Shown piece after piece: positions 1-63,091 of a stretch of 64,000 nt of DNA. The notes beneath the pieces are model-generated. The model was not told the origin of the DNA. It made no database searches and saw nothing but the letters and a program-made list of their open reading frames with translations. The DNA lies in assembly GCF_046119375.1 (NCBI RefSeq), contig NW_027362769.1, positions 360,902,001-360,966,000 of the forward strand, in the 5' to 3' direction. The translations under genes and the position numbers were made by a program. The DNA is from Phyllobates terribilis. Its lineage: Eukaryota. Position 1 is the first letter of the stretch; every line of letters starts with the position of its first letter.

Positions 1-426
1 CCTCTGGTTGTTGGGAACAGCTGTAGAACCTCATCCGGAGGTCCGCCTCAGTAAGGTCCTCAAAGACAGTCTGTAGTTTTTGGAATATTGCGGACACTGA
101 CTCCTGGTCTGCGGCCGACCACGTATCCACTTCCCGTTCCGCAGCACCGGTCAGTTGTCCCAATACAACGGCGCTATTTGTTTGCCGGTCATAGAGTACA
201 TGTCTAAGATACCACATATCTTCCGTTTGAATCCAGACAGGGTATCTGGTTTGCCATTGTACTGGGGGAGCCACTTTGCTCCAGGAATGTACGGTAAATT
301 CATAGGGATAATGAGTGTTACAGGCGCTGCTGGTGAAGCGGCGGCTTCGGCCTGCTCATCATCGGGCGCGGGTTGAACCTCAGGGACGTTGACCGGCATG
401 TCGGCGTTCTGTTGCTCGTCAGACAT
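1..426 (-). pseudogene. gag: gag N-terminal part, frameshifted near 165
   Basis: ORF 151-426 (LPYIPGAKWLPQYNGKPDTLSGFKRKI) is homologous to gag at 56232. Homology (WSAAD..SVSAIFQKLQTVFED) continues in another frame to base 1. Confidence 0.85.
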
Positions 427-792
427 CTTAGCGCCCCCCTAGTTAACCTTGGCCTACCTTCTAGTTCTTTCTTCCGGTAGGCCGCAGCTCCGCAGGTGAT
501 GGGCATCTTCAGGACTTTGCGTCGCTTGCGTCCTACGTCAGAGAGTTCAGCGACGTTCCTCACAGGACCTGGCGCTTCTTGGTCTGACGTTGAAGCGTGG
601 GGCGTGTCCAAGGCTTCGCGCTCTTTTGCAGGTACGCCCCTAATTTTCCCGCGGTTACGCCCTTCTTCTCGCTCGGTGGCCCAACAATGGCGGCAACCTT
701 CACCACAACTTTACGTACACAGTTCAGAATAAAGGCGCACAGTGCCCGGTGGCAACGGGCATAACACGGCGTTGTTGCAGCGGGCACGGGCA

Positions 793-810
793 ATCCTGTT
801 AGTGACGCCA
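793..810 (-). promoter_or_regulatory. Primer-binding site, tRNA-Ser(CGA)-like
   Basis: TGGCGTCACTAACAGGAT, 8 nt inside the LTR. One mismatch to the PBS at 55854 (TGGCGTCACGAACAGGAT), which complements the vertebrate tRNA-Ser(CGA) 3' end as recalled. Confidence 0.75.
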
Positions 811-818
811 GAAGGAGA

Positions 819-1951
819 TGACTAGCCCAGGGGATGGGGATAACTTGGATACCCGGGCCTTTAGCCTTGGGGATGTCGCGGCGGTCGGCACCCGGGCCCG
901 TACCCTGGGGTCTCTCCTTTAAAGAAGGCGTTGATAGATGTTAAGTTTTATTAAAGAGTTTGTGACGCCACCTGTGGCTTCTGGTGAGGATCACCAGTGC
1001 TGCGCAGTCCACTGAAGCCGATGATAAGGCAGCTGGGTGGTATAGCTCCCCACAGGTGGAGCTAGGCCTTAGGGCAGTGTATGACGGGGGATGAAGAACA
1101 GGTGAGACCGAGCCGGGTCAGAGCAAGAATGGGGACAGACACGATAGTCACTTCAGTACCTTTTACTGATGGCAATTCAGGCACGTCCCGGAGCACTGTA
1201 GGGTGAAGGGTGCATGTCAGAATCCTCCCCAATGAGCGGGTTTTGGGCCTCCTGTTTCTTGCCTCTGCGTAGTAAGTTTCTGACCTGCCTGGAGCTAGGC
1301 CTAACTTTGTCTCTGTCCTGCGCTGACTGACTTTGTGGTAGGGCCTTCTCTTGGAGTGCACGCTCCAGACTTACGGGGCCTATGTGTCTCCTGGCATTGT
1401 TACGTATAAGCACTGTAGCGATCCTGGGACTTGTAGTTCTCCAGGGATTCCGGTTTATCTTACTGGGTCGTGGCGATCCCGGTAAGCTTCGGATCCGGTG
1501 TCCGGTAACTGCTTCGGGGTGAGCCAGTTAAGCTCCTCTGCCCCCTATGCACTAACTCTTCTTTTTGCCTTCGGCCTACTCGGGCCCTCACTAGGCTAAT
1601 CACACTAACGGCAGCTTGACGTGCTTCACCGATCTTATGGCGCCGGCACACCTAAGCTAAGCTCACCTCTCTGAGCTTCAACCAAGTCTGGACTGCGCTC
1701 CACTGCAGACTGACCTCTTTCAGGCTTCTATACTGCAGGAACTCTCTCAACAGGTTTGCTCTCTGTCGTGTCCAGTCTAGACTAACTGCTGCCTGGCTCC
1801 ACATTCCCTATTTATCTATCCCTAACGGGCTCCCTCTGGTGGTTTGAGGTGGAAGGTGGAGATGTGTGAATTGTTATGGGGGCCTCTTGTGGAGGAATCC
1901 TTCAATACACCCTTCTAGGATCTGTGATACCAAGCACAGCTGGGCGTCACA
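819..1951 (-). repeat. 5' LTR of Gypsy family B
   Basis: About 1.13 kb, colinear with LTRs 54715-55846 and 61948-63087. AGTAAA signal at 1162-1167. Confidence 0.92.
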
Positions 1952-1952
1952 C

Positions 1953-2261
1953 CGGGAAGGCGTTAATATGTGCTTCCACCAGGTAGCAGGATGGGGCTTC
2001 ATCCGCAGCTCACAGTTCAATCGGGACGTGTTCGTCAACCGGCGGGACGTCGAGCCGCGGCTGGAGCAGGGCCACCCTGGCCGGAACCTCTACCCGGGCA
2101 ATTTGATATACTACTCCCGCCACCACGGGGAGCGTGGGTGGTATGCCCTGGACGTCCACAAGGTAATCAGGGAGGACGCCCCCACGCACCTAGCTGTAGA
2201 GGACCGGTCAGGCTCCGTTGGTAAGAAAGAGCCATTCCCCCGGAGGGGATCCCACTTTTAA
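1953..2261 (+). CDS. Cold-shock-domain (OB-fold)-like ORF, 5' end cut by the family B insertion
   Basis: REGVNMCFHQVAGWGFIR..RDVFVNRRDV..NLYPGNLIYY..GERGWYALDV. RNP1-like GWGFI and RNP2-like DVFV at CSD spacing, plus the terminal A-x-x-V strand. Confidence 0.7.
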   Translation, partial: REGVNMCFHQVAGWGFIRSSQFNRDVFVNRRDVEPRLEQGHPGRNLYPGNLIYYSRHHGERGWYALDVHKVIREDAPTHLAVEDRSGSVGKKEPFPRRGSHF

Positions 2262-2794
2262 GCAGCCCCGGGAGATGGATCTCCCTATTGTGTGAACTGT
2301 TATTTGTTTTTCAAGTTTTTCACCCGGATTTAGTTGAAAGAGACATTTGTCCCTGCGGACGCTCCGCATGTGAAAGACTAACTTTGTAAATAGTTTGCAC
2401 CTATTTAGGTGCTCCCTATTGGTTTTATGTAAAACCACTTCTACCTCAGACCTCAGAAGCAAAACCTGTCTGGTGTGGCTCTACTGAAGTTCCAACTTGG
2501 GATTTCCATACCCTGCAGCCACCCCAGGGCCTACGCTGATGGTTTGGGGCAGGTCCCTCATGCTGCTGAACTGACTTTTTCTACCGTATTTTCTACAGTA
2601 CTGTCTACATGCATAATGTCTCTTTGATGTTTTCTATATTTATACTATATATATCATGCAACGTTAAAGTAACTGAGCCTCCCATAAAGGGAAGATTGTT
2701 TCATGTTTACAAAAACTTTTAAAATTTTGAATGTATGTACCAATTCTTTACTCTATTGCAGCCCGCGGACGTGCTGAGTTTCACCGGGGGGGAA

Positions 2795-4042
2795 TGTGGC
2801 GCCCCTGAGGGTTCAATCGCCACAGGGGTACTGCACCTCAGATGAGGTGTGGTATCTCCTCCTCTAGGTAAGGATGGAGCATCACACGAGACCCCACTCC
2901 ACACTCAACACTACATCACTCCTGTCCTGTAGGGGGCCTAAATGCACCAGGGTGCTGCCCCGGCACATGATAGAGGAGATAGGGGGGAACTAAAGATAGG
3001 GGGAACCTAGTAATGGGTGAGGGTGGAGGACACACTTTAAGGAAGCACTTATTGATTGATATATAATCCACGGCCATCTTAAGTTCGAGGTCTTTGATTG
3101 AGGGTCTTCTGTCAGGGTACAGCAAGAGTCTGTAGCTGGCTGAAGATTCGCGGTCCTCGTACTCTGGCCTTGAGACGAGGAGCGAGTCAGAGTTAACCAC
3201 TGTCTCTAACCGGTCAGGGTCCTGTCCTAAGAAGGCCTAGGAGGGGAGCAGAGGAGATAGGCTCCACAGGCAAAAGGATCCCAGGGGGATACAGACGGAG
3301 CGGAGTCGCCACCTGTATTCTTTACTCTGGCCTAGTCAGAGGGATTCCTGCTGCAAAAGGGGTAACCTGCCCCCGATATCTGACTTTGTCACTTCACGTC
3401 TCAGTCAGAGAAGCCTGGAGGCTTAGTGGATCCCAGGGTGATACGGACGGAGCGGAGTCGCCACCTGTATCTCTTAAACTGCGTTTACCCAGTGGGACCC
3501 GGCCTTACACCACGTTCATTCCACGCACAGTCAGGAGAAGTTTCAGTAGGAGAGCTTACCAAGGAGAGGAACACACACCAGCGGGGTCTGTACAGGTGCT
3601 ACTGATCTACCTGGGAAGTGCTGGATCCCCTTCCCGGTGGCCGCAGTACGCCGTGAGTAGCAGAGAGAAGCATTGCGGCTGTAAGTTCATCTAAAGTGAG
3701 TAAAGACCCGGATGACTTCATTCACCGCCTCCGCTTGTTTATTCCTGCGCGGCATTGCACCCACCATTCCTTCGCACACTGCCCTGAGGCCTGCTCCGCC
3801 TGTGGGGAGCCGTCCCATCCTAGCTGCCCCTAACACCAGCCTCAGTGGACTGTTGCAGCGCTGGTGGCCTTCACCAGAAACCACAGGTGGCATAGCCGAA
3901 CAACCACTCATCCCAAAGCACATTATTTTAATGTGACAGCCCTGGGCACGGAACGGGTCCAGGCCACGACTGCATCACCGCAACATGTACACTGACCCGG
4001 CTCCGAGTAACCCCACCGCCAGGGAGGGCGAGGCGAGTCACA
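2795..4042 (+). repeat. 3' LTR of Gypsy family A
   Basis: Follows the PPT. TGTGGC...GTCACA termini, AGTAAA at 3699. Start is similar to the solo LTR at 40553-41765. Confidence 0.85.
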
Positions 4043-7000
4043 GGCAGCTCTATATACTGTGCAAACTGCTCTATATACTGTACAGGCAGCTCTATATACT
4101 GTACAGGGTGCTCTATATACTGTGCAAACTGCTCTATATACTGTACACACTGCCCTATATACTGTACAGGCAGCTCTATATACTGTACACACTGCTCTAT
4201 ATACTGTACACACTACTCTATATACTGTACAGGCAGCTCTATATACTGTACACACTGCTCTATATACTGCACACACTACTCTATATACTGTACAGGCAGC
4301 TCTATATACTGTACAGGCTGCTCTATATACTGTGCAAACTGCTCTATATACTGTACACACTGCCCTATATACTGTACAGGCAGCTCTATATACTGTACAC
4401 ACTGCTCTATATACTGCACACACTACTCTATATACTGTACAGGCAGCTCTATATACTGTACACACTGCTCTATATACTGTACAGGCAGCTCTATATACTG
4501 CACACACTACTCTATATACTGTACAGGCAGCTCTATATACTGTACACACTGCTCTATATACTGTACACACTACTCTATATACTGTACAGGCAGCTCTTTA
4601 TACTGTGCACATTGCTCTATATACTGTACAGGCAGCTCTATATACTGTACACACTGCTCTATATACTGTACAGGCAGCTCTATATACTGCACACACTACT
4701 CTATATACTGTACAGGCAGCTCTATATACTGTACACACTGCTCTATATACTGTACACACTACTCTATATACTGTACAGACAGCTCTATATACTGTGCAAA
4801 CTGCTCTATAAACTGTACACACTGCTCTATATACTGTACACACTGCTCTATATACTGTACATACTGCTCTATACACTGTATATACTGCTCTATATACAGT
4901 ACACATTGCTCTATATACTGTACAAGCAGCTCTATATACTGTACATACTGCTCTATATACTGTACACACTACTCTATATACTGTACAGACAGCTCTATAT
5001 ACTGTGCAAACTGCTCTATATACTGTACATACTGCTCTATACACTGTATATACTGCTCTATATACAGTACACATTGCTCTATATACTGTACAAGCTGCTC
5101 TATATACTGTACACACTGCTCTATATACTGTACACACTACTCTATATACTGTACAGGCAGCTCTTTATACTGTGCACACTGCTCTATATACTGTACAGGC
5201 AGCTCTATATACTGTGTAAACTGCTCTATATACTGTACACACTGCTCTATATACTGTACAGGCAGCTCTATATACTGTACAGGCAGCTCTATATAATGTA
5301 CACAATGCTCTATTTACTGTACACACTGATCTATATAATGTACACACTGCTCTATTTACTATACACATTGCTCTATATACTGTACAGGCAGCTCTATATA
5401 CTGTACACACTGCTCTATATACTGTACAGGCTGCTCTATATACTGTACACACTGCTCTATATACTGTACAGGCAGCTCTATATACTGTACAGGCAGCTCT
5501 ATTTACTGTACACACTGCTCTATATACTGTACAGGCAGCTCTATATAATGTACACACTGCTCTATTTACTATACACATTGCTCTATATACTGTACAGGCA
5601 GCTCTATATACTATACAGGCTGCTCTATATACTGTACACACTACTCTATATACTGTACAGGCAGCTCTTTATACTGTGCACACTGTTCTATATACTGTAC
5701 ACACTGCTCTATATACTGTACACACTGCTCTATATACTGTACAGGCAGCTCTATATACTGTACACACTGCTCTATATACTGTACAGGCAGCTCGATATAC
5801 TGTACACGCGGCTCTATATACTGTACACGCTGCTCTATATACTGTACACACCGCTCTATATACTGTACAGGCAGCTCTATATACTGTACACACTGGTCTA
5901 TATACTGTACACATTTCTCTATATACTCTACACACTGCTCTATAAATTGTACAGGCAGCTCTATATACTGTACACACTGCTCTATATACTGTACAGGCTG
6001 CTTTATATACTGTACACACTGATCTATATACTGTACAGGCTGCTCTATATACAGTACAGGCAGCTCTATATACTGTACACACTACTCTATATACTGTACA
6101 CACTGCTCTATATACTGTACACTCTTCTCTATATACTGTACATGCTGCTCTATATACTGTACACACTACTCTATATACAGTATATGCTGCTCTATATACT
6201 GTACACACTGCTCTATATACTGTAGAGGCGGCTCTATATATTATACACATTGCTCTATATACTGTACACACTAATCTATATACTGTACAGGCTGCTCTAT
6301 ATACTGTATACACTGCTCTATATACAGTACACATTGCTCTATATACTGTACAGGCACTCTATATACTGTACACACTGCTCTATATACTGTACAGCCTGCT
6401 CTATATACTGTACAGGCTGCTCTATATACTGAACACACTGCTCTATATACTGTACAGGCTGCTCTATATACTGAACACACTGCTCTATATACTGTACACA
6501 TTGCTCTATATACTGTACATACTGCTCTATATACTGTACAGGCTGCTCTATATACTGTATAGGCTGCTCTATATACTGTACACTCTGCTCTATATACTGT
6601 ACAGGCTGCTCTATATACTGTACACACTGCTCTATATACTGTACACACAGAACTATATACTGTACACACTGCTCTATATACTGTACATACTGCTCTATAT
6701 ACTGTACAGGCTGCTCTATATATTGTACACACTGCTGTATATACTGTACACACTGCTGTATATACTGTACACACTGCTCTATATGCTGTACATACTGCTC
6801 TATATACTGTACAAACTGCTCTATATACTGCACACACTGCTCTATATACTGTACAGGCTGCTCTATATACTGTACACGCTGCTCTATATACTGTACAGGC
6901 TGCTCTATATACTGTACAGGCAGCTCTATATACTGTACACACTATCTATACACTGTATATGCTGCTCTATATACTGTACACACTGCTCTATATACTGTAC

Positions 7001-8150
7001 AGGCTGCTCTATATACTATAAACGCTGCTCTATATACTGTACACACTGCTCTATATACTGTACAGGCTGCTCTATATACTGAACACACTGCTCTATATAC
7101 TGTACACATTGCTCTATATACTGTACATACTGCTCTATATACTGTACAGGCTGCTCTATATACTGTATAGGCTGCTCTATATACTGTACACTCTGCTGTA
7201 TATACTGTACAGGCTGCTCTATATACTGCACACACTGCTCTATATACTGTACACACAGAACTATATACTGTACACGCTGCTCTATATACTGTACACATTG
7301 CTCTATATACTGTACATACTGCTCTATATACTGTACAGGCTGCTCTATATATTGTACACACTGCTGTATATACTGTACACACTGCTCAATATACTGTACA
7401 CACTGCTCTATATACTGTACAGGCTGCTCTATATATTGTACACACTGCTGTATATACTGTACACACTGCTCAATATACTGTACACACTGCTCTATATACT
7501 GTACACACTGCTCTATATACTGTACAGACAGCTCTATATACTGTACACACTGCTCTATATAATGTACAGGCTGCTCTATATACTGTACACACTGCTCTAT
7601 ATACTGTACAGGCTGCTCTATATACTGTACATACTGCTCTATATACTGTACACACTGCTCTATATACTGTACAGGCTGCTCTATATACTGTACACACTGC
7701 TCTATATACTGTACAGGCTGCTCTATATATTGTACACACTGCTGTATATACTGTACACACTGCTGTATATACTGTACACACTGCTCTATATACTGTACAA
7801 ACTGCTCTATATACTGCACACACTGCTCTATATACTGTACAGGCTGCTCTATATACTGTACACGCTGCTCTATATACTGTACACACTGCTCTATATACTG
7901 TACACGCTGCTCTATATACTGTACAGGCTGCTCTATATACTGTACAGGCTGCTCTATATACTGTACACACTGCTCTATATACTGTACACACTGCTCTATA
8001 TACTGTACACACTGCTCTATATACTGTACACACTGCTCTATACACTGTATATACTGCTCTATATACTGTACACACTGCTCTATATACTGAACACACTGCT
8101 CTATATACTGTACAGGCAGCTCTATATACTATACACACTGCTGTATATAA
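4043..8150. repeat. 21-bp minisatellite (CTATATACTGTACACACTGCT), about 195 copies
   Basis: Direct inspection. The long LYILYT/VYRAVC ORFs are its translations. Confidence 0.98.
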
Positions 8151-8450
8151 TTGTTGTGCAGTCTGTGCACTATATACAGCTGTGCTCTGTGTGTAGACGC
8201 TGCATTTTGTGTCTTCTCTCAGTAGTTCACCTTTTGCACAATAGTGGGGTGTACTTATATTACAGGTCAGGGAGGTGGCAGTCAGCGGAGGCCATCGCCT
8301 GTGTTACCCTTCTGGGGTCTCAGCAGCTCCAGATCGTCTCCACATCGTGCAATCCGCTTTCTGTACGACAGACATTATCCGGCAGGGAAGCACAACTGGA
8401 GTGCGGAGCTTCTCTCTGTTGGGAGGAGACGGGGCCCATGTTCAGTGTCA
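8140..8450 (+). other. Decayed inverted copy of the H1 upstream region, with internal deletions; no H1 gene follows
   Basis: Matches the reverse complement of 21110-21200, 21440-21580 and 21825-21920. Confidence 0.8.
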
Positions 8451-8634: not shown

Positions 8635-9459
8635 AGCAGAGTGTAATGTTCTGAGCAATGAACTCTCAGCAATCTGCAATCCACAATCGTACGTGTCCTG
8701 TCACAAACCTCCTGCCTTTAGCTGTAGAATTGATCTGTAAATGGATTACTGGAAAACTGCTGAGGAGATGATCGGGGAGACATAATGAGATCTGCATGGG
8801 AAAGTAGAATTGATCTTTCTAGAAATGTCTCTTGTAGGATAAATCCCCGATCAGTATATAGTCCTCCACAATAGTGATTGTGATGCAATGTACTGAAGAG
8901 AAAGATCTGCTGCCCTAATCCCGAAACTCTACAGACTCCTGTATGATGTAAACGAGGAATAATCGCTGCACACATGCAGGTGTTCCCGATATCGGCCCGA
9001 CATAGGACCACGTGTTATATGAAGACAAAGAACAGAAAATCCATCAAGCACTGAGCGGGAATTCACCCATTGGTAACATTAGCTCCTCCTCTTCCTCTGC
9101 GGATTATGAATTTCCCGCTCATTGTAGTTTCCACAACTTCTAAATGTAATGATGTAATTTCTTCCGCTGTGAAAAGAAGTGTCCGGAATTATAGATAAAA
9201 TCTACACAAATGTCTCATGTTATTCGGAGAAACATGAACTAACCGAATCATGTTATACCGGATGAAGGAGACCCCGGAATATCAGATCTGGGGAGCAAGG
9301 GGTGGAGTAAAAAGCCACTGAACACAGGACAACTCGCTCATAAGATTACTGAAAGGATCAGAGCTGTGAAGGACTCATTCATAGGTTTCACTATCAGTCT
9401 AGGAAAGAGTTAATCAGCTCTACTAGCGCCACCTGCCATTTACCCTGTGAATAGACAGA

Positions 9460-10382
9460 ACACAGGAGCAGCCACAGCTCTGATGTAGACGGGAGAGGAC
9501 ACAGGAGCAGCCACAGCTCTGATGTAGACGGCAGAGGACACAGGAGCAGCCACAGCTCTGATGTAGACGGCAGAGGACACAGGAGCAGCCACAGCTCTGA
9601 TGTAGACGGCAGAGGACACAGGAGCAGCCACAGCTCTGATGTAGACGGCAGAGGACACAGGAGCAGCCACAGCTCTGATGTAGACGGCAGAGGACACAGG
9701 AGCAGCCACAGCTCTGATGTAGACGGGAGAGGACACAGGAGCAGCCACAGCTCTGATGTAGACGGGAGAGGACACAGGAGCAGCCACAGCTCTGATGTAG
9801 ACGGCAGAGGACACAGGAGCAGCCACAGCTCTGGGCAGAGGACACAGGAGCAGCCACAGCTCTGATGTAGACGGCAGAGGACACAGGAGCAGCCACAGCT
9901 CTGATGGAGACGAGAGAGGACACAGGAGCAGCCACAGCTCTGATGGAGACGAGAGAGGACACAGGAGCAGCCACAGCTCTGATGGAGACGAGAGAGGACA
10001 CAGGAGCAGCCACAGCTCTGATGTAGACGGGAGAGGACACAGGAGCAGCCACAGCTCTGATGTAGACGGGAGAGGACACAGGAGCAGCCACAGCTCTGAT
10101 GGAGACGAGAGAGGACACAGGAGCAGCCACCGCTCTGATGTAGACGGGAAAGGACACAGGAGCAGCCACCGCTCCGATGTAGACGGGAGAGGACACAGGA
10201 GCAGCCACCGCTCCGATGTAGACGGGAGAGGACACAGGAGCAGCCACCGCTCTGATGTAGACGGGAGAGGACACAGGAGCAGCCACCGCTCTGATGTAGA
10301 CGGGAGAGGACACAGGAGCAGCCACAGCTCCGATGTAGACGGGAGAGGACACAGGAGCAGCCACAGCTCTGATGGAGACGGG
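9460..10382 (-). repeat. 39-bp tandem array downstream of H2B, each unit containing the HDE core
   Basis: Sense unit CTCTCCCGTCTACATCAGAGCTGTGGCTGCTCCTGTGTC, about 24 copies, starting right after the stem-loop. Confidence 0.95.
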
Positions 10383-19460: not shown

Positions 19461-20280
19461 GGCACTGATCATACAGATCTGCCGGGGACAAAGTGGTGGC
19501 ACTGATCATACAGCTCTGCCGGGGACAAGGTGGTGGCACTGATAATACAGCTGTGCCGGGGACAAGGTGGTGGCACTGATCATACAGCTCTGCCGGGGAC
19601 AAGGTGGTGGCACTGATAATACAGCTGTGCCGGGGACAAGGTGGTGGCACTGATCATACAGCTCTGCCGGGGACAAGGTGGTGGCACTGATCATACAGCT
19701 ATGCAGGGGACAAGGTGGTGGCACTGATCATACAGCTATGCAGGGGACAAGGTGGTGGCACTGATCATACAGCTATGCAGGGGACAAGGTGGTGGCACTG
19801 ATCATACAGCTCTGCCGGGGACAAGGTGGTGGCACTGATCATGCAGCTATGCAGGGGACAAGGAGGTGGCACTGACCATACAGCTCTGCAGCGGACAAGA
19901 TGGTGGCACTGATTATACAGCTATGCAGGGGACAAGGTGGTGGCACTGATCATACAGCTATGCAGGGGACAAGGTGGTGGCACTGATCATACAGCTCTGC
20001 CGGGGACAAGGTGGTGGCACTGATCATACAGCTATGCAGGGGACAAGGTGGTGGCACTGATCATACAGCTATGCAGGGGACAAGGTGGTGGCACTGATCA
20101 TGCAGCTATGCAGGGGACAAGGAGGTGGCACTGACCATACAGCTCTGCAGCGGACAAGATGGTGGCACTGATTATACAGCTCTGCAGCGGACGAGGTGGT
20201 GGCACTGATCATACAGCTCTACAGGGGACAAGGTGGTGGCTCTGATCATACAGCTCTGCAGGGGACAAGGTGGTGGCTCT
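19461..20280 (-). repeat. 37-bp tandem array downstream of H1, unit = stem 3' arm + cleavage region + HDE
   Basis: Sense unit CAG(T/A)GCCACCACCTTGTCCCC(T/G)GCAGAGCTGTATGAT, about 22 copies, overlapping the stem-loop. Confidence 0.95.
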
Positions 20281-20290
20281 GAAAAGAGCC
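20275..20290 (-). terminator. Histone 3' stem-loop (H1)
   Basis: GGCTCTTTTCAGAGCC. Confidence 0.95.
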
Positions 20291-23455: not shown

Positions 23456-24369
23456 TTAGAGATCAGAAATCAATGCTGAAACGTCACTGATTCCTTTTTT
23501 ATATAGCGTATAGGTGGACCAGAGAGAGGACTGCAGAGAGGAGGAGGTTCCCGGGCGGGTCTTACAGAATCTACATTAGCTCCTCCTTCCTCTGCTGATT
23601 GGCTGAACACAGAACTGTTGGGGAGTTTGAATTTCCCGCTCATTGTGCAGTTTCTGCAGTTCTTTCCAGCTTCTGCTCTATGTAACTTATTTCCCTGTGA
23701 AGAGAAATATCACAAATATTGTCATCACCTTTCCAGATCATGGTGGAGAAATCTAATCAATGAAATTCATAGTTGGAGAAATAACCTGACAATCATAAAG
23801 GGAAATTAATATATTTTTATAGCATGAATACAAAATCACTGAGGATCACAGTTCACAGATCACAGATGTGAAGAGCAAGAAAATCAACAACAACAAAAAA
23901 TTACAGAATGTAGTGCCAAATATAATTAACCAGATCTTTGTTGAAATTTCCACTGAGCCCTAAAAAAAAACACTTTTACAGATTTAGTGATACCACATAT
24001 GTGTATTTTTTATTTTTTAAGTTACTCTGATTTAAATGAGGGTAAAGTAGAAGTGATTCTACCCTGTGATCATCTGTTTGCTTGTACTATGCACAGCGCT
24101 GTATAAAGCTATAGTATATAGCTTAATAAACAACACTCACCAGGTGCTAGATGTTACCTGCCGAATATGAGAAGTGACACACATAATGATTATAAAATAT
24201 ACATATTATTGCCAATTTTTTTAAAACACATAAAATAGGAAAGGATGCTAAAAAAAAAAAATACACTGGTGCTCAACCTTATATATTGTCTATACAAATC
24301 TGCAACAGATACAATTAATTTATAGCCTAGGGACGTCAAATCACTAATAATAATAATAATAATAATGAA

Positions 24370-26240
24370 CCCAATATAATGCTCCATACAGAATAATGGA
24401 CCCCATGTAATGCTTCAAACAGAAAAATGGACCCCATATAATGCTCCATACAGAATAATGGGCTTCATATAATGCTCCATACAGAATAATTGACCCCATA
24501 TAATGCTCCATACAGAACAATGGGCCTCATACAATGATCCATACAGAATAATGGACAACATATAATGCTCCATACTATATAATGGACCATATACAGTATA
24601 GTACTCCATACAGAATAATGGACCCCATATAATGCTTCATACAGAATAATGGGCCTCATATAATGCTCCATACAGAATAATGGACCTCATATTATGCTCC
24701 ATACAGAATAAAGGGCCTCATATAATGATACATACAGAATAATGGACCCCATATAATAATCCATACAGAATAATGGACCCCATATATTGCTCCATACAGA
24801 ACAATGGGCCTCATATAATGTTCCATACAGAATAAAGGACCTCATATAATGCTCCATACAGAATAATTGGCCTCATATGATGATCCATACAGAATAGAGG
24901 GCCTCACATAATGCTACATACAGAATAATGGACCCAATATATTGCTCCATACAGAATAATGGGCCTCATATAATGCTCCATACAGAATAATGGACCCCAT
25001 ATAATGCTCCATACAGAATAATGGGCCTCATATAATGCTCTATGCGGAATAATAGACCCCATATAATGCTTCATACTGTGTAATGGACACCATATTGTAC
25101 TCCATACAGATTATTAGACCCCAAATAATGCTTCTTACAGAATAATGGGCCTCATATAATGCTCCATACAGAATAATGGACCCCATATAATTCCTCATAC
25201 AGAATAATGAACCCCCATAAAATGCTCCATACGGTATAATGGACCCCATATAGTGCTCCATCCAGAATAATGGACCCCATATAATGCTTCATACAGAAAA
25301 ATTGACCCCATATAATAATCCATACTGTATAATGGACCCCATATAATGCTTCATACAGAGTAATGGACCTCATATAATGCTCCATACAGATAATGGACCC
25401 AATATAATGCCCCATAAAGAATAATAGACCCCATATAATGCTTCATACAGAATAATTGACCCCATATAATGCTCCATACAGAATAATGGGCCTCATATAT
25501 TGCTCCATACAGAACAATGGGCCTCATATAATGCTTCATACAAAATAATGGACCCCATATATTGCTCCATACAGAACAATTGGCCTCATGTGATGTGCCA
25601 TACAGAATAATGGACCTCATATAATGCTCCATACAGAATAATGGGCCTAATATGATGCTCCATACAGAATAATGGGACTCATATAATGCTACATGCAGAA
25701 TAATGGACCCCATATAATGCTCCATACAGAATAATGGGCCTCATATAATGCTCCATACAGAATAATGGACCCCATATCATTATATGGGGTCCATACTATA
25801 TAGTGGACCCCATATAGTACTCCGTACAGAATAATTGAACCCATATAATGCTTCATACAGAATAAAGAACCCCATATAATGCTTCATACAGAAAAATGGT
25901 CCCCATATAGTGCTCCATACAAAATAGTGGAGCCCATATAGTACTCCATACAGAATAATGGACCCCATATAATGCCTCATACAGAATAATTTATCCCATA
26001 TAGTGCCCATACAAAATAATGGACCCCATATAATGCTTCATACAGAAAAATGGACCCATATTATAATCCATACAGAATAATGGACCGCATATAATGCTTC
26101 ATACAGAAAAATGGACCCCATATTATAATCCATACAGAATAATGGACTCCATATATTGCTCCATACAGAATAATGGGCCTCATATATTGCTCCATACAGA
26201 ACAAAGGACCTCATATAATGTTACATACAGAATAATTGGT
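24370..26240. repeat. 31-bp minisatellite (CCCCATATAATGCTCCATACAGAATAATGGA), left part
   Basis: About 60 copies. The same unit resumes at 48468. Confidence 0.97.
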
Positions 26241-31996: not shown

Positions 31997-33148
31997 TTAC
32001 AGTCACCACTGTACTTGCGAGAGCTTCAATCAGCAAGATATCTTGAGTAAACAGTATTTACTTCATACTGGTTAAACATGAGATACAATTCAGTGTCACT
32101 CAGTCCGTTTGCTGCTGACATAACACATTCAGAAAAAAAGAAAAAAAACACAGGAAGTAAAAACAACCAACAATTGAGAACTTTCCTCCACTCTTTACAG
32201 CAAGCATATAACTTTACACACTATCACCATTAGAGATGAGCGTTGTTCTACTCGAACTGTTCGCCAATCTCAAATTCGAGCTGTTTTGGGCGGTGTTCGA
32301 GCCGGTCGGCGAACACGAACAATTTGAGAAAAATTCGGCTGTTCGAGGTTATGTTTGATAACTGTTCGTGCACCAAAATCATAACTGGATTTTTTCTCAG
32401 TAATGATGAAAATTAATGTTAATACGCAGTTTGAGTGTACAGCGGGGCGGGGGGAGGGGCAGGGGATGGATCTCTGCAGGAACAATGAAGATCTCCATTT
32501 TTTTTTCTCTTTCCCGCATTTGCAGTGGGGAGGTGCAATCTGTCAGCCTATCAGCAGCGCACACACGGAGCGAAGTGCTTTTTTTCACACAAGCAAGGGC
32601 ATGTGTCATTGGCAGTGTATGTCACATGTCCTTGCCCTATAAGACCAAGCCATTTTCCCCGTCGCCACCATTTTCTCACTGCTGCAGCTGCGAGTTAGAC
32701 GGCACCGCTGTTGCTGTGTGTGCTATACCTTGTTAATTTCAAGCCAATTTTCGCACAAATATACAGATAGCTTGGGAGTAGGGAATAGTTGTGATTGCAG
32801 TCCTTTTAAGGACTAGGTTACAGCATTTCCTACGACTTTTATCAGGGAGGTCTGTGCTCTTAAATAGATAGGTTGTGGGAGTAAAGACTAATTGTAATTG
32901 GAGTCCTTTTCAGGACTAGGTTACATGAGTTCCTATCAGTTTTTGCCAGGCAGGTCTGTGCCAGTGCTGTGCAAGTTTTTTTCACAGCATTTGGCTGAAT
33001 CTAGCAAAGCTAATCCTTTTTGGCCTATTGCAGAGTGTGTTAGTCAGTGGAGTAGCCTATCTGTGTTGCAAGATATAACACCTGTGTATAGAATACCAAT
33101 TTTTTTACTGCACCTAGTGAAGTAAAATCTTTTGGGCATAGCATCATT

Positions 33149-34532: not shown

Positions 34533-34649
34533 AACCCAGCCAATAGTTTTGGCCTAATACCACAGTTTGGCCACTCAGCTCTGCTCGGTTACCATCCATT
34601 GTTTTTTTGTGCAAACAACTCCAGAGTTGTGAATTAGTTAACCACCAAA

Positions 34650-54714: not shown

Positions 54715-56231
54715 TGTGGCGCCCAGCTGTGCTTGGAGCCACAGGTCCTACAAGGGTGTATTACTGGAAACCTCCACAAGAGGCCCCCATAAACATTCAT
54801 ACATCTCCACCTTCCACCTCAGACCAGCAGAGGGAGCCCGTTAGGGATATAAATAGGGAAGGTGGAGCCAGGCAGCTGAGTCTAGTTTCAGTTGGCAGTC
54901 TAGCCAGAACAGAGTACCTGCTCACAGCCAGAGAGGAACAGAGTTCTCAGTTCGGTTCCTGCAGAAGTCTGTATGCAGAGGTGGCCAAGCTAGATTCAGG
55001 GAGCTCAGTTAGAGCTTAAGGTGTGTTGGCGCCATAAGATCGGTGAAGCGCGGCAAGCTGCCATTAGTGTGAGTAGCCTAGTGAGGGCCCGAGTAGGCCG
55101 AAGGTGAGAGGAAAGTGAGTAGCAATGGGGGCAGAGGATCTTACCCAGCTCACCCCGAAACATATACCGGACACCGGGCCCGAGCTTACCGGGATCTCTA
55201 TGACCCAGTAAGGCATAACCGGAATCCCTGGAGTACTACAGGTCCCAGGTTCGCCAGAGAGCTGATACGTAACAGAGCCAGGAGACACATAGGCCCCGTA
55301 AACTGGGAGCGTGCACTCCAAGAGAAAGGTCCAACCACAACGTCAGCTGGTGCAGGACAGAGATAAAGTTAGGCCTAGCTCCAGGCAGGTCAGAAACTTA
55401 CTACGCAGAGGCAAGGAACAGGAGGCCCTACACCCGCTCATTGGGGAGGATCCTGATATGCACCCTTCACCCTCCGGGACGTGCCTGAATTTCCATCAGT
55501 AAAAGGTACTGAAGTGACTACCGTGTCAGTCCCCGTTCTTGCTCTGACCCGGCTTGGTCTCGCCTGTCCTGCATCCCCCTCTCCGTACGCTGCCCTGAGG
55601 CCTAGCTCCACCTGTGGGGAGCTATACCATCGAGCTGCCTTATCACCGGCCTCAGTGGACTGCCGCAGCGCTGGTGATTCTCAACAGAAACCACAGGTGG
55701 TGTCACGAACTTTCATAGAGTTAACAAACAATCCCCTTTTAAAAGCTGACCCCAGGGTACGGGCCTGGGAGCCGACCACCGCAACATTCCAAAAGGCCAG
55801 GCAAAGGCCAGGGTACCGAGTCGTCCCCATCCCCCTGGGCTAGTCATCTTTCTTGGCGTCACGAACAGGATCGCGTGCCCGCTGCAACGACTGAGTGTTA
55901 TGCCCGTTGCCACCAGGTACTGTGCGCCTTTAATTAAAAACTGTGTACGTTAAACTGTGGTGAAGACTGCCGCCATTGTTGGGCCGTCGAGTGAGAAGAA
56001 GGGCGTAACCGTGGGAAACTGAGGGGCGAACCTGCAAAAGCGCGCGAATCCCCGGACACGTCCCACGCTTCGACATCAAACCAGGAAGCGCCAGGTCCTG
56101 GAAGAAGCGTCGCTGAATGCTCTGACGCAGGACGCAAGCGACGCAAGATCCTGAAGACGACCGTCACCTGCGAAGCTGCGGCCTACTGGAAGAAAAGAAG
56201 GTAGGCCACGGTCCGCTAGGGGGGTGCCAGA

Positions 56232-57290
56232 ATGTCCGAGGAACAGCACGACGCCGGAATACCGGTTAACAGCCCTGATGTTCAACCCGCGCCCGACGCC
56301 GAGAAGGCCGAAGCGGCCGCTCCACCAGCAGCGCCTGTAACTCCTGTCATCCCCATAACTCTACCATACATTCCTGGAGCAAAGTGGCTCCCCCAGAACA
56401 ATGGCAAACCTGATACCCTGTCTGGATTCAAACGGAAGATATGCGTTATCTTGGACATGTACTCTATGACTGGCAAGCAGAGGGCCGCTGTTGTATTAGG
56501 ACAACTGACTGGTGTTGCAGAACGGGAAGTGGAAACATGGTCGGCCGCAGACCTGGAGTCAGTGTCCGCAATCTTTAAAAAGCTACAGACTGTTTTTGAG
56601 GACCATACTGAGGCGGACCTCCGTTTGAGGTTCTACAACCGTTCTCAACAGCCGGAGGACAATGTTCGGGACTATGCCTGGCGTCTACAAGGGGCCCTGC
56701 GGGCTCTGAAACAGGTTAGTCCGACCAGCATCGAAAATGAAAACAAAATGCTGAAGGAACAGTTTGTCCGGGGACTGAGGTCTCCAGAGGAGAGCAGGAC
56801 TGTGCGTTGTTGGTCCTTAGATTATCCAAATGCCACCTTTGACAATCTTAAGGACATGGCTATAAAAGGACTGCAGCCCCTGTAAACAAATGCCATCCAA
56901 TGTTACAAGGGTGGGGCTACCCCAGTGCCTGCTACACCCACCTTTTACCCAGCGGCTGCTGAAGCCAAGGTTCCAGCAATGTCCTCTAGAGAGCTGGACA
57001 GTCTGCGCTCTGAAGTGCGCCGGTTGAGCAAAACCCTTACCACTGTGCTGAGTGCTCTCCAGCTGCGGACAGAGCCCGAGGAAGGAGGGAAATGCCTGTT
57101 AGCCGATAGCCCTGAGGATGTCCCCTGGATGCGACGGAGGAGGAGGACACCACCCTCTACAAGGATCAGTGACCAGCGCCGTCCACAGAAGGACCCTACG
57201 TGCTACCACTGCCGCAAGACAGGACACACCGCCCAGAATTGTCCTTTAAACGAGAAAACCCTGGGTCCGTGGGCCGACACCCAGGAGTAA
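56232..57290 (+). pseudogene. gag: gag with CCHC knuckle, broken near 56885
   Basis: ORFs 56232-56885 and 56925-57290; CYHCRKTGHTAQNC. Confidence 0.9.
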
Positions 57291-57352
57291 ACTCCCCAGG
57301 CCCATCAGACTGGTAAAACAGGATCGTCGGAGGAAGACCTTTCCTGTCCATT

Positions 57353-60300
57353 GTGCTGGACGGCATCCCGATGCACGCTCTGCTGGACACAGGATCTCAG
57401 GTAACCATAATGACTGACGTCCTCTACAAGAGGTTCTGGTCCATGGACGACCTACGTCCTCCAGCTCCAAATCTTTCTGTTTATGCCTCAAATGGACTCC
57501 CCCTTAAGAATGTGACAGTAAAAGTGGGGAGAGTGGAGCTGAAGGATCAGGGACTAATTGTAGTAGAGACTAATCCTGATGATACCGATCCGTATATGGT
57601 ACTAGGCACTAACATTGTTGGTAACTGTTTGGGAGAAGTTGTGTTCTTGCTCCAACAGATAGCTGACACTGCCAGACCAGGACAGAGGAGGGCACTGCAG
57701 AAGGAGATCCGAGTTCTGATGTACCAACAGCAAGTAAGGTTAACAGACGGTGAAATCGGTAATGTGCGGGTGACGGACCCCATACCCATTGTGATCCCCC
57801 CAATGAGTGAAATGCTTATCTGGTGTAGAGCTGCCATAGGTCTTAGAGGACAGAGCTACCAGGCGGTAGTAGAACCCCTTTGCTCCGAGCACAGACCCAC
57901 GCTCCTTAACCGCCAGAGGAGTGGTAGATGTACGTAATGGGAGGGTGCCCGTCCGTCTTCTCAACTGTGGGGAAGATGAGGTCAGATTGCCACGTTATGC
58001 CACTGTTGCCAAATTACATGCTGTAAATAACAACTGCATTCACAAGGCGGAGTCCTTAACTACACCAGACGAAGTGGAGGACAATGACCCTGCAACCTAG
58101 GTGGAGGATTGGTGTCAACAGCTCCATGTTGGGACAGACACCACTCCTGCCCATCAGAAACAGGGTGTACACCGGGTGGTTCAAGAATACGCGAAGGTGT
58201 TCAGTAAACATCCACTTGGCTTCGGGAGGATTAAGGGGATTCAACACCATATCCCCACAGGTGACCATCCACCCATCAAAGAACGCTACAGGCCTATACC
58301 ACCAGCACACTACCAGAAGGCTAAAGAAATGTTGCACGAAATGAGAAAGGTGGGGGTAGTAAGGGATAGTTGTAGTCCCTGGGAAGCTCCCCTAGTGCTA
58401 GTTAGGAAAAAGGATGGGAGCATGAGAATGTGTGTAGATTACCGACAAGTAAATCGCATTACACATAAAGATGCATACCCTTTACCACGCATAGAGGAGT
58501 CCCTAGCTGCCTTAAAGTCTGCAAATTACTTTTCCACCCTTGACCTCACTAGTGGGTACTGGCAAGTAACTGTGGCTGAGGAGGATCGGGAGAAGACGGC
58601 CTTCACTACCCCGATGGGACTCTGCGAGTTCAACAGTATGCCATTTGGACTCTGCAATGCCCCTGGAACGTTCCAGAGATTGATGGAGTGCTGCCTGGGA
58701 CACCGCAACTTTGAGACTGTATTACTATACCTGGATGACGTGATAATGTACTCCAAAACGTATGAGGACCACTTGAAGCAACTGGCAGAGGTATTTGAGT
58801 CACTGTCCCGGTACGGGATGAAGTTGAAGCCCTCAAAGTGCCACCTGCTCAAGAGAAAGGTACAATACCTGGGGCACATTGTCAGTCCGGAAGGGGTAGC
58901 ACCAGACCCGGAGAAGATCACTGCCATCCAGAAGTGGCTGGAGCCAAAGAACCTCAAAGAGGTGCGTCAGTTCTTGGGACTAGTAGGATACTACCGGAGG
59001 TTTGTAAAAGACTACACCAAGAAAGCAGCTCCTCTACAAGACCTCCTGGTAGGGCAGTCCCCCAAAGGCAGAAATCCCCCATTCAACTGGGGTAAGGAGC
59101 AAGCCGAGTCGTTTCAGGAGATGAAGGAGATCCTGACCGGCGACGAGATCCTGGCCTACCCGGACTACAGCCAACCGTTCCTGCTGTATACTGATGCCAG
59201 CAACGAAGGGCTGGGCGCTGTCCTAAGTCAGAAGCAGAATGGCCAAGAGAAGGTAATCGCATATGCAAGCAGGAAGCTCCGCCCGACCGAGAGGAACCCA
59301 GAGAACTATAGCAGCTTCAAGTTGGAGTTCCTGGCCCTGGTCTGGGCCTTCACTGAAAGGTTCAAGCACTATCTAGCCTCCAGCAAGTTCACTGCCTTCA
59401 CTGATAACAACCCCTTGACCCATCTTGAAACAGCTAAGCTAGGAGCATTGGAACAACGATGGATGGCTCGGCTGTCAAATTATCAATTCACAATTAAATA
59501 CCGGGCGGGCCGCAAGAACGCCAACGCCGATGCCCTGTCCAGGATGCCTCACCAGTCAGACACAGAAGAAGAAGTGGATGACCTGGAAGCCTTTCACCGG
59601 AATGGGATGATCCACGAGCAACAAGCCTCCAGGAGGCAGCGTGGAAAGACGTTAAACCCCCCACCTCACCACAGCTGGAAAGAGACCCAGGACAGTGACC
59701 CGATTGTCAGCCGTATCAAGGAGCTGATAACCCAAGAAGGTTCCTCCCTGGAGAAGGAAGCGTCTCTGCAAGCAAAGCAGCTGTGGAACGAGAGAAGCCG
59801 GCTGTTTATCTACCATGAGAAGCTGTGCCAGAGGTACGTCAATCCAAAAACCCATGAGATGGTATGGCAGATAGTGGTCCCCAAGACAGACATCCAAATG
59901 GTGTTGGGGGCAAACCACGATCAGGCGGGGCACTTTGGCTGGAAAAAGCTAGAGACCCTGCTGAAGTGTCGATCTACTGTGTAGGAATGTGCAGCTCCAT
60001 TGAGCGGTGGTGCCGGGACTGTGGACCCTGTGGCCTTAGAAGAAAAGACTACAGCAGCCAGAAAGCACCCCTGCAACCCATCAAGACGACTCGACCCCTG
60101 GAGAGTGTGGCCCTGGACCATGTCAAGCTGTCCCCCAGCAGGTCAGGGTACCATCATGCTCTGACCATGGTGGATCACTACTCACCTTTCCTGGTGATCG
60201 CCCCCGTCAATGACCTGACGGCAGAGACAGTAGCAAAGACGTTCCAAGCGTATTTCTGTAGACCTCCATGGCTATCCTGAGCAGGTGCTGACGGACCAAG

Positions 60301-61367
60301 GCCCGGCCTTTGAGGCTGAGTTGTTCAAGGAGTTCTGCCATCTATACGGGTGTAAGAAGATAAGAACTACACCGTACCACCCGCAAACCAATGGTCTCTG
60401 TGAGAAGATGAATAACATCATCATCGACCTGCTAAAGACCATGCAACTTGAGGAGAGAAATCAGTGGCCAGACCTACTACCTGACCTAGTAGATCTGTAC
60501 AATCACATACCAGTAAGTTCCACCAACTGTACTCCGGCATATCTCATGCGAGCAAGGCCAGGAAAGCTGCCCATGGATCTGGAGCTTGGTGTTGTTGAGC
60601 CTGAAGCTGATATGACCACTGAGGACTGGGACACGACCAGACAGGAGCAGTACAGGAGGGTACATGCCTGTGTCGAGGACAGTCTCACTCGAGTGAGAAA
60701 TAAGCAGGAGGCGCACTACAACAAAAACGCACCCGCCGAACCCTTCACACCTGGTGAAGTAGTATTGAAAAGGAAAAGAAGGAACCACAAACTTGACGAC
60801 CAGTGGGAGAGAGAACCCTACACTTTGTTGAATTCAAGATTCGACAATAAGAAGACCTAGACCTACTTAATTAGTCGAGATAGAGGAAGGACGACTGTGA
60901 CAGTGTCCAGGGATCACCTAAAGTTGTGTCCAGACCTGCTAAAGCCTCAAGAAGAAGTGCCTCTCGTTATCCCAGAGGAGCCTAAAGAAGCACTGATACA
61001 CACTGACTTAGGAGATTTCCCAGCAGATTGGCCCCAACTAGGAGGAGCAGTAATCATCCTCGTACTCCAATTCTTCGAACAGCCAGAAGACCCTCCACAG
61101 CAAGATGAACCTGTAAGTGCTGCAGAAGAGCCTAGTGCTGCAGAAGAGCCAGCTCAAGAAGGATCCCCAGCAGGAGAAGAGCCAGAGGGCCCAGGTAATG
61201 GTACACTTGCCAGTCCCAGAGAGAGGTTAAGGCAGTTTTACAACTTAGTCACACGTAGAACCGGTAGGGTACCTGACAATGCAGACTCTGATATCACACA
61301 GACCACCGAACTACGCAGATCAACACGTAGTACTAGAGGTAAACCCCTTGTCAGATACACTGAGTAA
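57353..61367 (+). pseudogene. pol: pol (PR-RT-RH-INT) with stops and frameshifts
   Basis: ALLDTGSQV; CVDYRQVN, LDLTSGYWQ, MPFGLCNAP, YLDD; YTDAS, FTDNNPL; HDQAGH..CGPC, LTDQG, GLCEKMN; RRSTRSTRG tail. Confidence 0.95.
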
Positions 61368-63091
61368 AATATCTAAACTCTGACAAGTGTAGATAGTTAC
61401 CCCTTGGGTATTGTGTATTATTATACTGTATTATTGGGATTTTCATGCATATGTATATTATTTTGTGTTTTGCCTTATTATTGAACAATCTAAGTGATAT
61501 GGACACTTTGCCTATTTACTTCTTTATTTACCTAAGAACTCAGTGGCTGAGGACTGTGTGCAGCCAAAAACTATTTATTGCATATAATTGCGCTCCCTGG
61601 AGTGTCTCTTTTAGGTGACCTCAGAAGTAAAACCTGTCTGGAGTGGCTCTACTAGAGGTCCAACTCGGGATTTCCATGCCCTGCAGCCACCCCAAGGCCT
61701 ACGTTGAGGGTTTGGGACAGGTCCCTCAAACCACCAAGTACTCTACTCTGTGAGATGGACATCCTGTCTGGGAACCTCACCACAAGAGACTTGAATTCTG
61801 AGGACGCTTTGTATTCGTTTATGTTATTATGCAACGTTTAAGAAATGTGCCTCCCATAAAGGGAAGAGTTATTGCATTGTTAATGTTCACTATTGTTGTT
61901 TTAAAATGTACTTCAGCCCGGGCGTGCTGAGCTTTGCTAGGGGGGAATGTGGCACCCAGCTGCGCTTGGAGCCACAGGTCCTAGAATGGTGTATTACTGG
62001 AATCCTCCACAAGAGGCCCCCATAAACATTCATACATCTCCACCTTCCACCTCAGACCAGGAAAGGGAGCCCGTTAGGGATATAAATAGGGAAGGTGGAG
62101 CCAGGCAGCTGAGTCTAGTTTCAGTTGGCAGTCTAGCCAGAACAGAGTTCCTGCTCACAGCCAGAGAGGAACAGAGTTCTCAGTTCGGTTCCTGCAGAAG
62201 TCTGTCTGCAGAGGTAGGCCAAGCTAGATTCAGGGAGCTCAGTTAGAGATTAAGGTGTGCCGGCGCCATAAGATTGGTGAAGCGCGGCAAGCTGCCGTTA
62301 GTGTGAGTAGCCTAGTGAGGGCCCGAGTAGGCCGAAGGCTAGAAGAAAGTGAGTAGCAGTGGGGGCAGAGGAGCTTACCCAGCTCACCCCGAAACATATA
62401 CCGGACACCGGGTCCGAGCTTACAGGGATCTCTATGACCCAGTAAGGCATAACCGGAATCCCTGGAGAACTACATGTCCCAGGTTCGCCAGAGAGCTGAT
62501 ACGTAACAGAACCAGGAGACACATAGGCACTGTAAACTGGGAGCGTGCACTCCAAGAGAAAGGCCCTACCACAACGTCAGCCGGTGCAGGACAGAGATAA
62601 ATTTAGGCCTAGCTCGAGGCAGGTCAGAAACTTACTACGCAGAGGCAAGAAACAGGAGGCACTACACCCGCTCATTGGGGAGGATCCTGATATGCACCCT
62701 TCACCCTAGAGTGCTCCGGGACGTGCCTGAATTTCCATTAGTAAAAGGTACTGAAGTGACTACCGTGTCAGTCCCCGTTCTTGCTCTGACCTGACTGGGT
62801 CTCGCCTGTCCTGCATCCCCCCTCCGTACGCTGCCCTGAGGCCTAGCTCCACCTGTGGGGAGCTATACCATCGAGCTGCCTTATCACCGGCCTCAGTGGA
62901 CTGCCGCAGCGCTGGTGATTCTCACCAGAAACTACAGGTGGTGTCACAAACTTTCATAGAGTTAACAAACAATCCCCTTTTAAAAGCTGACCCCAGGGTA
63001 CGGGCCCGGGAGCCGACCACCGCGACATCCCAAAAGGCCAGGCAAAGGCCCGGGTACCGAGTCGTCCTCATCCCCCTGGGCTAGTCAAAGG

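What the first reader, a model, noticed from the sequence alone, without database searches (positions are those of the whole stretch)
1953..2261. Cold-shock domain carried by a Gypsy retrotransposon, just upstream of its 3' UTR and LTR
Seen: the reading frame gives GWGFI..DVFV..LYPG.LI.Y..GERGWYALDV at cold-shock-domain spacing, about 530 bp before a PPT and LTR, within sequence sharing a 3' UTR block with the family B Gypsy, which shows no such domain at that position. Known: CSDs (CspA, YBX1, LIN28) are ssRNA/ssDNA chaperones, and the usual Ty3/Gypsy accessory modules are chromodomains or env. Inference: family A has captured an RNA-chaperone domain, either as an extra ORF or as an integrase C-terminal module, possibly acting in packaging, strand transfer or evasion of translational/piRNA control. 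I have a vague recollection of similar unannotated frog proteins, so it may be a lineage-wide TE ORF rather than unique.
Basis: partly seen in the sequence, partly recalled or inferred. Interest (0 to 1): 0.75.

Follow-up and report, generated by a model that had tools for sequence, protein, structure and literature searches.

The report
Enzyme-free frog retrotransposon's cold-shock gene
This is the broken tail of the only gene of a very abundant frog jumping element that has no copying enzymes of its own and instead encodes a conserved cold-shock-type protein, which likely binds the element's RNA to help it hitch a ride with related enzyme-bearing elements.

Summary
The cold-shock domain (CSD) is real. 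Pfam gives CSD, the AlphaFold model has pLDDT 95, and its top structure matches are Csp/YB-1 proteins. It is not an integrase module or extra ORF of a gag-pol Gypsy. It ends the single ORF of a 4.3-5 kb LTR element with a tRNA-Ser primer site, PPT and 4-bp target duplications but no gag/pol (0 of 60 loci). The window copy is dead: an 8.4 kb Gypsy inserted at 1952. The first look gave about 35,000 candidate places. Subfamilies range down to 32% CSD identity, and young ones have 99-100% identical LTRs. The CSD is under purifying selection (pairwise dN/dS 0.09-0.3). An autonomous PNMA-gag Gypsy family shares the primer site and has recombined with these elements, which points to co-packaging. CSD-less derivatives also amplify, so the protein is not strictly required in cis. 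Named homologues occur only in poison-frog annotations. Function is inferred: an RNA escort for its own genome. The scan noted this element twice before on other DNA of this genome. My searches found no paper on it; CSDs in bird ERVs are the nearest precedent.

The parts
1959..2162 (+). Cold-shock domain, C-terminal part of the element's single ORF
   Evidence: Pfam residues 3-70; model and fold search
1952..2261 (+). 3' remnant of the single ORF (435-475 aa in open-frame relatives). Its 5' part lies at L031:2448-3586, left of the window, and carries frameshifts
1952..1955 (+). CCGG target-site duplication of the nested Gypsy that splits the ORF (other copy at L031:3583-3586)
2262..2785 (+). 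3' UTR of the CSD element
   Evidence: found behind the CSD in 45 of 60 loci
2449..2560 (+). 112-bp block shared with autonomous family B (90% identical), candidate cis signal (inferred)
   Evidence: 88-96% in other copies
2786..2794 (+). Polypurine tract
   Evidence: same G-run + AA + TG as families B and C
2795..4040 (+). 3' LTR. The 5' LTR is L031:1295-2447, about 94.5% identical, followed by the tRNA-Ser primer site; flanks aagg/cagg (3 of 4 match)
3770..3890 (+). Block near the LTR end shared with the family B LTR (83%)
819..1951 (-). 5' LTR of the nested 8.4 kb family-B-like Gypsy (LTRs 95.9% identical)
1..810 (-). Primer site (793-810), leader and start of gag of the nested Gypsy
54715..63087 (+). 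Family B Gypsy (PNMA-like gag, PR-RT-RH-IN, broken, no CSD): relative of the nested element and possible helper lineage

Best explanation
The window holds the 3' end of a dead copy of a non-autonomous LTR retrotransposon whose only gene encodes a conserved cold-shock-domain protein, which likely binds the element's own RNA and would help it be stabilised, exported or packaged into particles made by related autonomous Gypsy families. Shown: the LTR-PBS-single ORF-3'UTR-PPT-LTR layout without gag/pol; recent transposition as that unit; purifying selection; the CSD fold; shared primer site and cis blocks with PNMA-gag Gypsy families; recombinants with one of them. Inferred: mobilisation in trans by those families (about 0.9); translation from the genomic RNA; RNA binding; and a benefit mostly in cis (about 0.45). 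The cis argument is that a purely trans-acting gene would decay in a passenger element.
For: No gag/pol within 1.5 kb in 0 of 60 CSD loci (3 are the window copy and its duplicates). 23 of 27 loci chosen by 3'UTR/LTR DNA carry the CSD upstream; the one integrase hit is antisense and beyond the LTR. 6 of 6 young copies examined: 4.9 kb, LTRs 99.7-100%, 4-bp TSD, one 676-692-codon frame. A second lineage with a 32%-identical CSD and unrelated LTR has the same layout. Selection: dN/dS 0.09-0.22 in protein-chosen copies; alleles in >=4 copies by codon position 39/24/111 against singletons 23/26/13; 0.31 in DNA-chosen copies; transversion-only ratio 0.21 between subfamilies. The primer site is complementary to a genomic tRNA-Ser(TGA) and identical in autonomous family C. 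A high-copy chimera joins family C gag to the CSD-ORF tail on a 3-nt microhomology. CSD-ORF remnants lie inside family-C-type LTRs at 94%. Protein anatomy: basic patch, two long predicted helices, disordered linkers, CSD. Analogy only: YB-1 supports HIV RNA metabolism (PMC6040738, abstract) and CERV exports Cer1 RNA (PMC10309623, abstract).
Against: No binding or expression test on the protein. The CSD lacks the beta-1 Trp and the RNP2 His seen in YB-1 in the alignment, so its ligand may differ. CSD-less derivatives amplify well: 150 of 150 scored gag hits are 99-100% alike and 30 of 30 examined are chimeras; a CSD-deleted form has 31 pattern matches. The protein is therefore dispensable in cis or supplied in trans. 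Within the window's own older subfamily the CpG-free signal is weak (ratio 0.59, 95% range 0.36-1.07). Protein-chosen samples are biased to low dN, and young copies were picked for long frames. No helper is matched specifically to the window's subfamily: family B has another primer site, and family C's LTR is only about 72% like the young CSD family over 370 bp.
Confidence: 0.5

Rival explanations
1. The protein acts in trans as a general helper of the whole LTR clan, for example shielding element RNAs from small-RNA or translational silencing, so helpers and CSD-less passengers profit too.
For: CSD-less chimeras and deletion forms amplify. The CSD lineages and family C share one primer site.
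Against: A purely public good should be lost from passengers, yet the domain is conserved across lineages 32% alike. No silencing data were obtained.
Confidence: 0.25
2. The protein is a competitive factor: it diverts helper Gag or primer tRNA to the passenger RNA, or represses helper RNA, as satellites and defective-interfering genomes do.
For: About 35,000 first-look candidates, while my one junction pattern found only 2 complete family C elements among 9 matches. Long helices could contact Gag.
Against: That pattern is not a census of helpers. No interaction was tested.
Confidence: 0.12
3. One reading: the CSD is an extra ORF or integrase-tail module of an autonomous Gypsy, and the short elements are deletion products.
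For: The ORF sits just before the 3' UTR, and a chimera has gag fused to the ORF tail.
Against: 0 of 60 loci have gag/pol. The ORF begins right after the primer site. Short elements have fresh TSDs and identical LTRs. Families B and C have no CSD. The chimera is better explained as a two-parent recombinant.
Confidence: 0.05
4. The frame is kept open only to protect the RNA from decay, or is a domesticated host gene spread by duplication.
For: Much of the protein is low-complexity and variable in length. Some copies lie in segmental arrays.
Against: Amino-acid conservation concentrates in the CSD and helices. Dispersed copies have their own TSDs.
Confidence: 0.04

Closest known systems
CSD-carrying endogenous retroviruses of birds (PMC12287698; passages seen; supplements not opened)
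   Same: LTR retroelements carrying PF00313; the paper reports 46 ERVs and suggests a benefit to the virus.
   Different: Those are retroviruses with RT, CSD at varying positions, captured several times. Here the CSD protein is the sole gene of a high-copy Gypsy-dependent element, with selection measured.
TRIM / LARD-type non-autonomous LTR elements (TRIM definition from PMC10886601 passages; LARD recalled)
   Same: LTRs, PBS, PPT, no mobilisation enzymes, moved in trans.
   Different: TRIMs are under 1 kb and LARDs are, as recalled, non-coding. This element is 4.3-5 kb with one selected ORF unrelated to gag/pol.
Additional ORFs of plant LTR retrotransposons (PMC7264820 passages) and C. elegans Cer1 CERV (PMC10309623 abstract)
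   Same: Element-encoded accessory protein; CERV acts on the element's genomic RNA.
   Different: Those sit within autonomous gag-pol elements. No sequence relation to them was tested.
Y-box / CspA cold-shock proteins
   Same: Same fold, RNP1-like GWGFI and RNP2-like VFV; loop length close to YB-1.
   Different: About 25-30% identity; beta-1 Trp and RNP2 His replaced; new conserved GWYA strand; donor unresolved.
Soybean SNARE autonomous/non-autonomous pair with LTR swapping
   Same: Helper-passenger recombination and LTR exchange.
   Different: No CSD gene is known to me there (recalled, untested).

Membership tests
Cold-shock domain (PF00313) | Profile match at the curated cut-off (27 bits) | tested here: inconclusive
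   Window copy 22.7-24.2 bits, below cut-off; other subfamilies 37-46 bits, above
Cold-shock domain (PF00313) | Five-stranded OB barrel of Csp type | tested here: met
Cold-shock domain (PF00313) | RNP1/RNP2 aromatic platform | tested here: inconclusive
   F8, W14, F16, F27 (nearly) invariant; Trp and His positions of YB-1 replaced
Cold-shock domain (PF00313) | Binds ssRNA/ssDNA | not testable with these tools
   needs a binding assay
Autonomous Ty3/Gypsy | gag and PR-RT-RH-IN between the LTRs | tested here: not met
   0 of 60 loci; none inside the complete elements; Pfam finds only CSD
Non-autonomous LTR retrotransposon | Paired TG..CA LTRs with target-site duplication | tested here: met
   6 of 6 young copies; 4 clean pairs among 8 second-lineage loci; window copy 3 of 4 letters
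Non-autonomous LTR retrotransposon | PBS matching a host tRNA, and PPT | tested here: met
Non-autonomous LTR retrotransposon | Identified autonomous partner sharing cis signals | tested here: inconclusive
   Family C shares PBS, PPT and leader and has recombined with CSD elements; not matched to the window's own subfamily
TRIM | Shorter than 1 kb | tested here: not met
   4.3-5 kb
LARD | Large non-coding internal region (recalled definition) | tested here: not met
   internal region is one ORF under selection
Y-box (YBX)-derived capture | Groups with host YBX CSD | tested here: inconclusive
   Profile best hit YB-1 36 bits vs Csp 32; Foldseek ranks bacterial Csp first; the tree had only a degenerate YBX-like row and 73 columns

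The most novel reading that the evidence does not exclude
Poison-frog genomes harbour an old, still-spreading class of 'satellite' LTR retrotransposons: no gag or pol, one self-encoded cold-shock RNA-binding protein of single origin, carried on at least two unrelated LTR backbones, which wins their RNA a place in helper Gypsy particles, much as hepatitis delta virus uses one RNA-binding antigen, and helps drive genome expansion.
Probability: 0.4. Interest if true: 0.85.

Novelty: new variant of a known kind. Interest (0 to 1): 0.68.

Why it matters
Non-autonomous LTR elements are usually treated as non-coding hitchhikers or decayed gag-pol copies. A passenger that keeps its own non-gag RNA-binding gene under selection through deep divergence implies a step of the LTR life cycle (RNA stability, export, packaging choice or escape from silencing) where a passenger can help itself. 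With tens of thousands of candidate places it is also a sizeable part of a 10 Gb genome, invisible to RT-based classification, and it contaminates gene annotation (P0002, P0003, P0054, P0055 look like gene models fused to it).

Tried and rejected
1) A single-sequence 'longer' homologue search with the window fragment found nothing; the profile search did. 2) ESM Atlas gave only hits of 0.85 or less, leads to generic CSD clusters. 3) RNA: no run is on record as RNA. Contigs of 3 guessed-RNA runs of one study cover all 30 bins of an older and of a young copy, including the ORF. No silent control stretch was laid, so this is not counted as evidence of expression. 4) The most abundant young RT family (1,680-aa frame, integrase before RT) shows no cis similarity to the CSD elements in the stretches held (10 loci) and was rejected as helper. 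5) A search for a clean host YBX retrocopy returned only the query, so the donor test is weak. 6) In the tree the 26 element rows form one side of a branch at 94/88, not starred; outside rows were chosen by similarity; no donor is claimed. 7) The PBS pattern includes the CSD element's own LTR end, so 30 of 30 (24 from one array) and 20 of 20 loci leading into the CSD ORF do not show that the PBS is exclusive; family C has it too. 8) The PBS count also catches a look-alike inside the LTR and is not used. 9) The full-length fold is low-confidence outside the two helices and the CSD (pLDDT 54) and was not used for a fold search. 10) Literature searches and a text search of PMC11152451 (0 hits for cold shock) found no description; Repbase/Dfam and most subscription papers are not covered. 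No complex prediction was run.

Full report
Observation. Pfam CSD matches residues 3-70 at E 9e-5, under the curated cut-off. All 38 of 38 aligned relatives match CSD, and other subfamilies pass the cut-off. An alignment-based model has pLDDT 94.9 and five strands; its best PDB matches are Csp, YB-1/YBX2, CRHSP-24 and Unr domains. The family profile finds 35 distinct PDB sequences at E<=0.01, led by YB-1 (3.8e-8) and then bacterial Csp. The domain is real.

What it sits in. The finding begins at an insertion junction. Left of 1952 is the 5' LTR (819-1951, minus strand) of an 8,365-bp Gypsy, 87% like the family B element at 54715-63087 over its internal region, flanked by CCGG on both sides. 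Beyond it, in the neighbouring genome stretch L031, lie the rest of the ORF (with frameshifts), a primer site and a 5' LTR about 94.5% identical to window 2795-4040. Without the insertion the element is about 4.2 kb: LTR, PBS, one ORF, 3' UTR, PPT, LTR. The nested LTRs are 95.9% alike, consistent with a later insertion. The whole arrangement is present three times within 270 kb at 99.6-99.9%, by segmental duplication.

The family. The CSD query drew 35,877 first-look candidates, 150 scored; this is not a copy number. None of 60 loci has gag or pol within 1.5 kb; 44 show the 3' LTR and 35 a 5' LTR end. Of 27 loci chosen by 3' UTR/LTR DNA alone, 23 carry the CSD upstream. Open-frame copies give 435-475 aa proteins. 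They have a basic patch, a helix at 135-178, Pro-rich linkers, a 49-residue helix and then the CSD; Pfam finds only the CSD. A Pfam search of the genome exposed a young subfamily: 6 of 6 copies fetched are about 4.9 kb with 99.7-100% identical LTRs, 4-bp TSDs and a single frame, no gag/pol (chosen for long frames). A second lineage has an unrelated LTR, the same PBS, a CSD 32% identical, 4.67 kb length and LTRs about 99% alike (4 clean pairs among 8 loci). So the unit that transposes, recently and repeatedly, is the enzyme-free one.

Selection. Pairwise comparison of 58 natural copies (2 duplicates of the window copy dropped from 60) gives CSD dN/dS 0.22 for close pairs and 0.09-0.14 for distant pairs. 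Alleles shared by four or more copies fall 39/24/111 on codon positions 1/2/3, singletons 23/26/13. These copies were picked by protein similarity, which lowers dN. DNA-picked copies give 0.31. With transversions only, to avoid CpG effects, the ratio is 0.21 between subfamilies and about 0.15 in the young one, but 0.59 (0.36-1.07) within the window's older subfamily, where post-insertion decay dominates. Indels among six young copies are 5 of 5 in-frame in the ORF against 6 of 25 in the 3' UTR (biased by choice). The window copy has several private changes in the CSD, as expected of a dead copy.

Who moves it. The PBS is complementary to the 3' end of a genomic tRNA-Ser(TGA). Family B shares a 112-bp 3' UTR block (90%), a 120-bp LTR block (83%), part of the leader and the PPT, but has a different PBS. 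A further family, C (L234, L235; PNMA-like gag with zinc knuckle, PR-RT-RH-IN, LTRs 98.3-98.7%), has the identical PBS and no CSD. A high-copy chimera consists of family C LTR, leader and gag start, joined on GCT to the tail of a CSD ORF and part of its 3' UTR, then family C 3' end. CSD-ORF remnants also occur inside family-C-type LTRs. Such junctions are what reverse-transcriptase template switching between co-packaged RNAs gives (established knowledge), so I infer that CSD elements travel in particles of these PNMA-gag Gypsy families. The helper of the window's own subfamily is not pinned down.

Distribution and origin. Named homologues are uncharacterised proteins of Phyllobates, Ranitomeya and Anomaloglossus only; several look like gene models fused to the element. 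This rests on annotated proteins; other frog genomes could not be searched, and whether those homologues are LTR-flanked was not tested. In a 43-row tree the 26 element-type CSDs form one side of a branch (94/88, not starred). YB-1 is favoured by profile score and loop length, bacterial Csp by Foldseek rank; the donor is open.

How it likely works. The genomic RNA has one 5'-proximal ORF, so it can be translated directly (inferred). A CSD on a helical, partly disordered scaffold with a basic patch suits an RNA escort. A gene in a passenger is kept only if it favours its own carrier, so I favour a mostly cis-acting role in stabilising, exporting or delivering the RNA to helper Gag (0.5 overall). 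CSD-less derivatives that still amplify show the protein is not indispensable in cis, and support a trans-acting rival (0.25). Changed RNP residues leave the ligand uncertain. RNA-run contigs cover the elements, but the runs are only guessed to be RNA and no control was laid.

Known and new. Bird ERVs carry CSDs (PMC12287698, passages); TRIMs lack enzymes but are small (PMC10886601, passages); accessory ORFs occur in autonomous elements (PMC7264820, passages; PMC10309623, abstract). Eight searches found no report of a gag/pol-free LTR element with a CSD gene; repeat libraries were not available. The hepatitis delta comparison is an analogy (PMC8256844 seen only as a search listing; the rest recalled). 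Two earlier notes of this scan describe the same kind of element elsewhere in this genome; they are not independent support. Verdict: observation confirmed, interpretation partly right; new variant of a known kind; interest 0.68.

Noticed in passing
L195-L224 (e.g. L201:240-2420): Very young, high-copy non-autonomous chimera: family C LTR, leader and truncated gag fused in frame to the acidic tail of a CSD ORF; 150 of 150 scored hits 99-100% alike.
   Followed up: yes
L278/L279 (C4:791.48-791.52 Mb) and L285: Further distant CSD lineages; L278/L279 keep the RNP2 His and score 46.5 bits; LTR context not established, so they could be old elements or retained genes.
   Followed up: partly
L131-L136 (C1:734.44 Mb): Intronless, partly duplicated multi-CSD sequence resembling CSDE1/Unr (name recalled), probably a processed retrocopy; L137/L138 look like exons of the parent.
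   Followed up: no
L107-L130 (C1:438.9-440.6 Mb): About 37 near-identical CSD elements spaced 25-100 kb apart, a large tandem segmental array, many with the full open frame.
   Followed up: no
L236-L245, L318: Very young, abundant Gypsy with integrase upstream of RT (Gmr1-like, name recalled), 1,680-aa frame, 486-bp identical LTRs.
   Followed up: partly
L258-L267, L270, L271: Places holding the 3' 20-45 nt of tRNA-Ser plus CCA next to LTR-end-like sequence: primer sites extended by read-through into the tRNA.
   Followed up: no
window 4040-8180, 9453-10382, 19461-20285, 24361-26239, 33148-34552, 48830-52915: Long tandem arrays; the CSD element's 3' LTR abuts the array at 4040-8180, whose unit is about 21 bp.
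   Followed up: no
window 63536-64000: Open frame resembling the start of a Tc1/mariner transposase (recalled likeness).
   Followed up: no
L035:5857-6890: A solo LTR of the second CSD lineage is inserted in the ORF of a first-lineage copy; other copies carry family B solo LTRs.
   Followed up: partly
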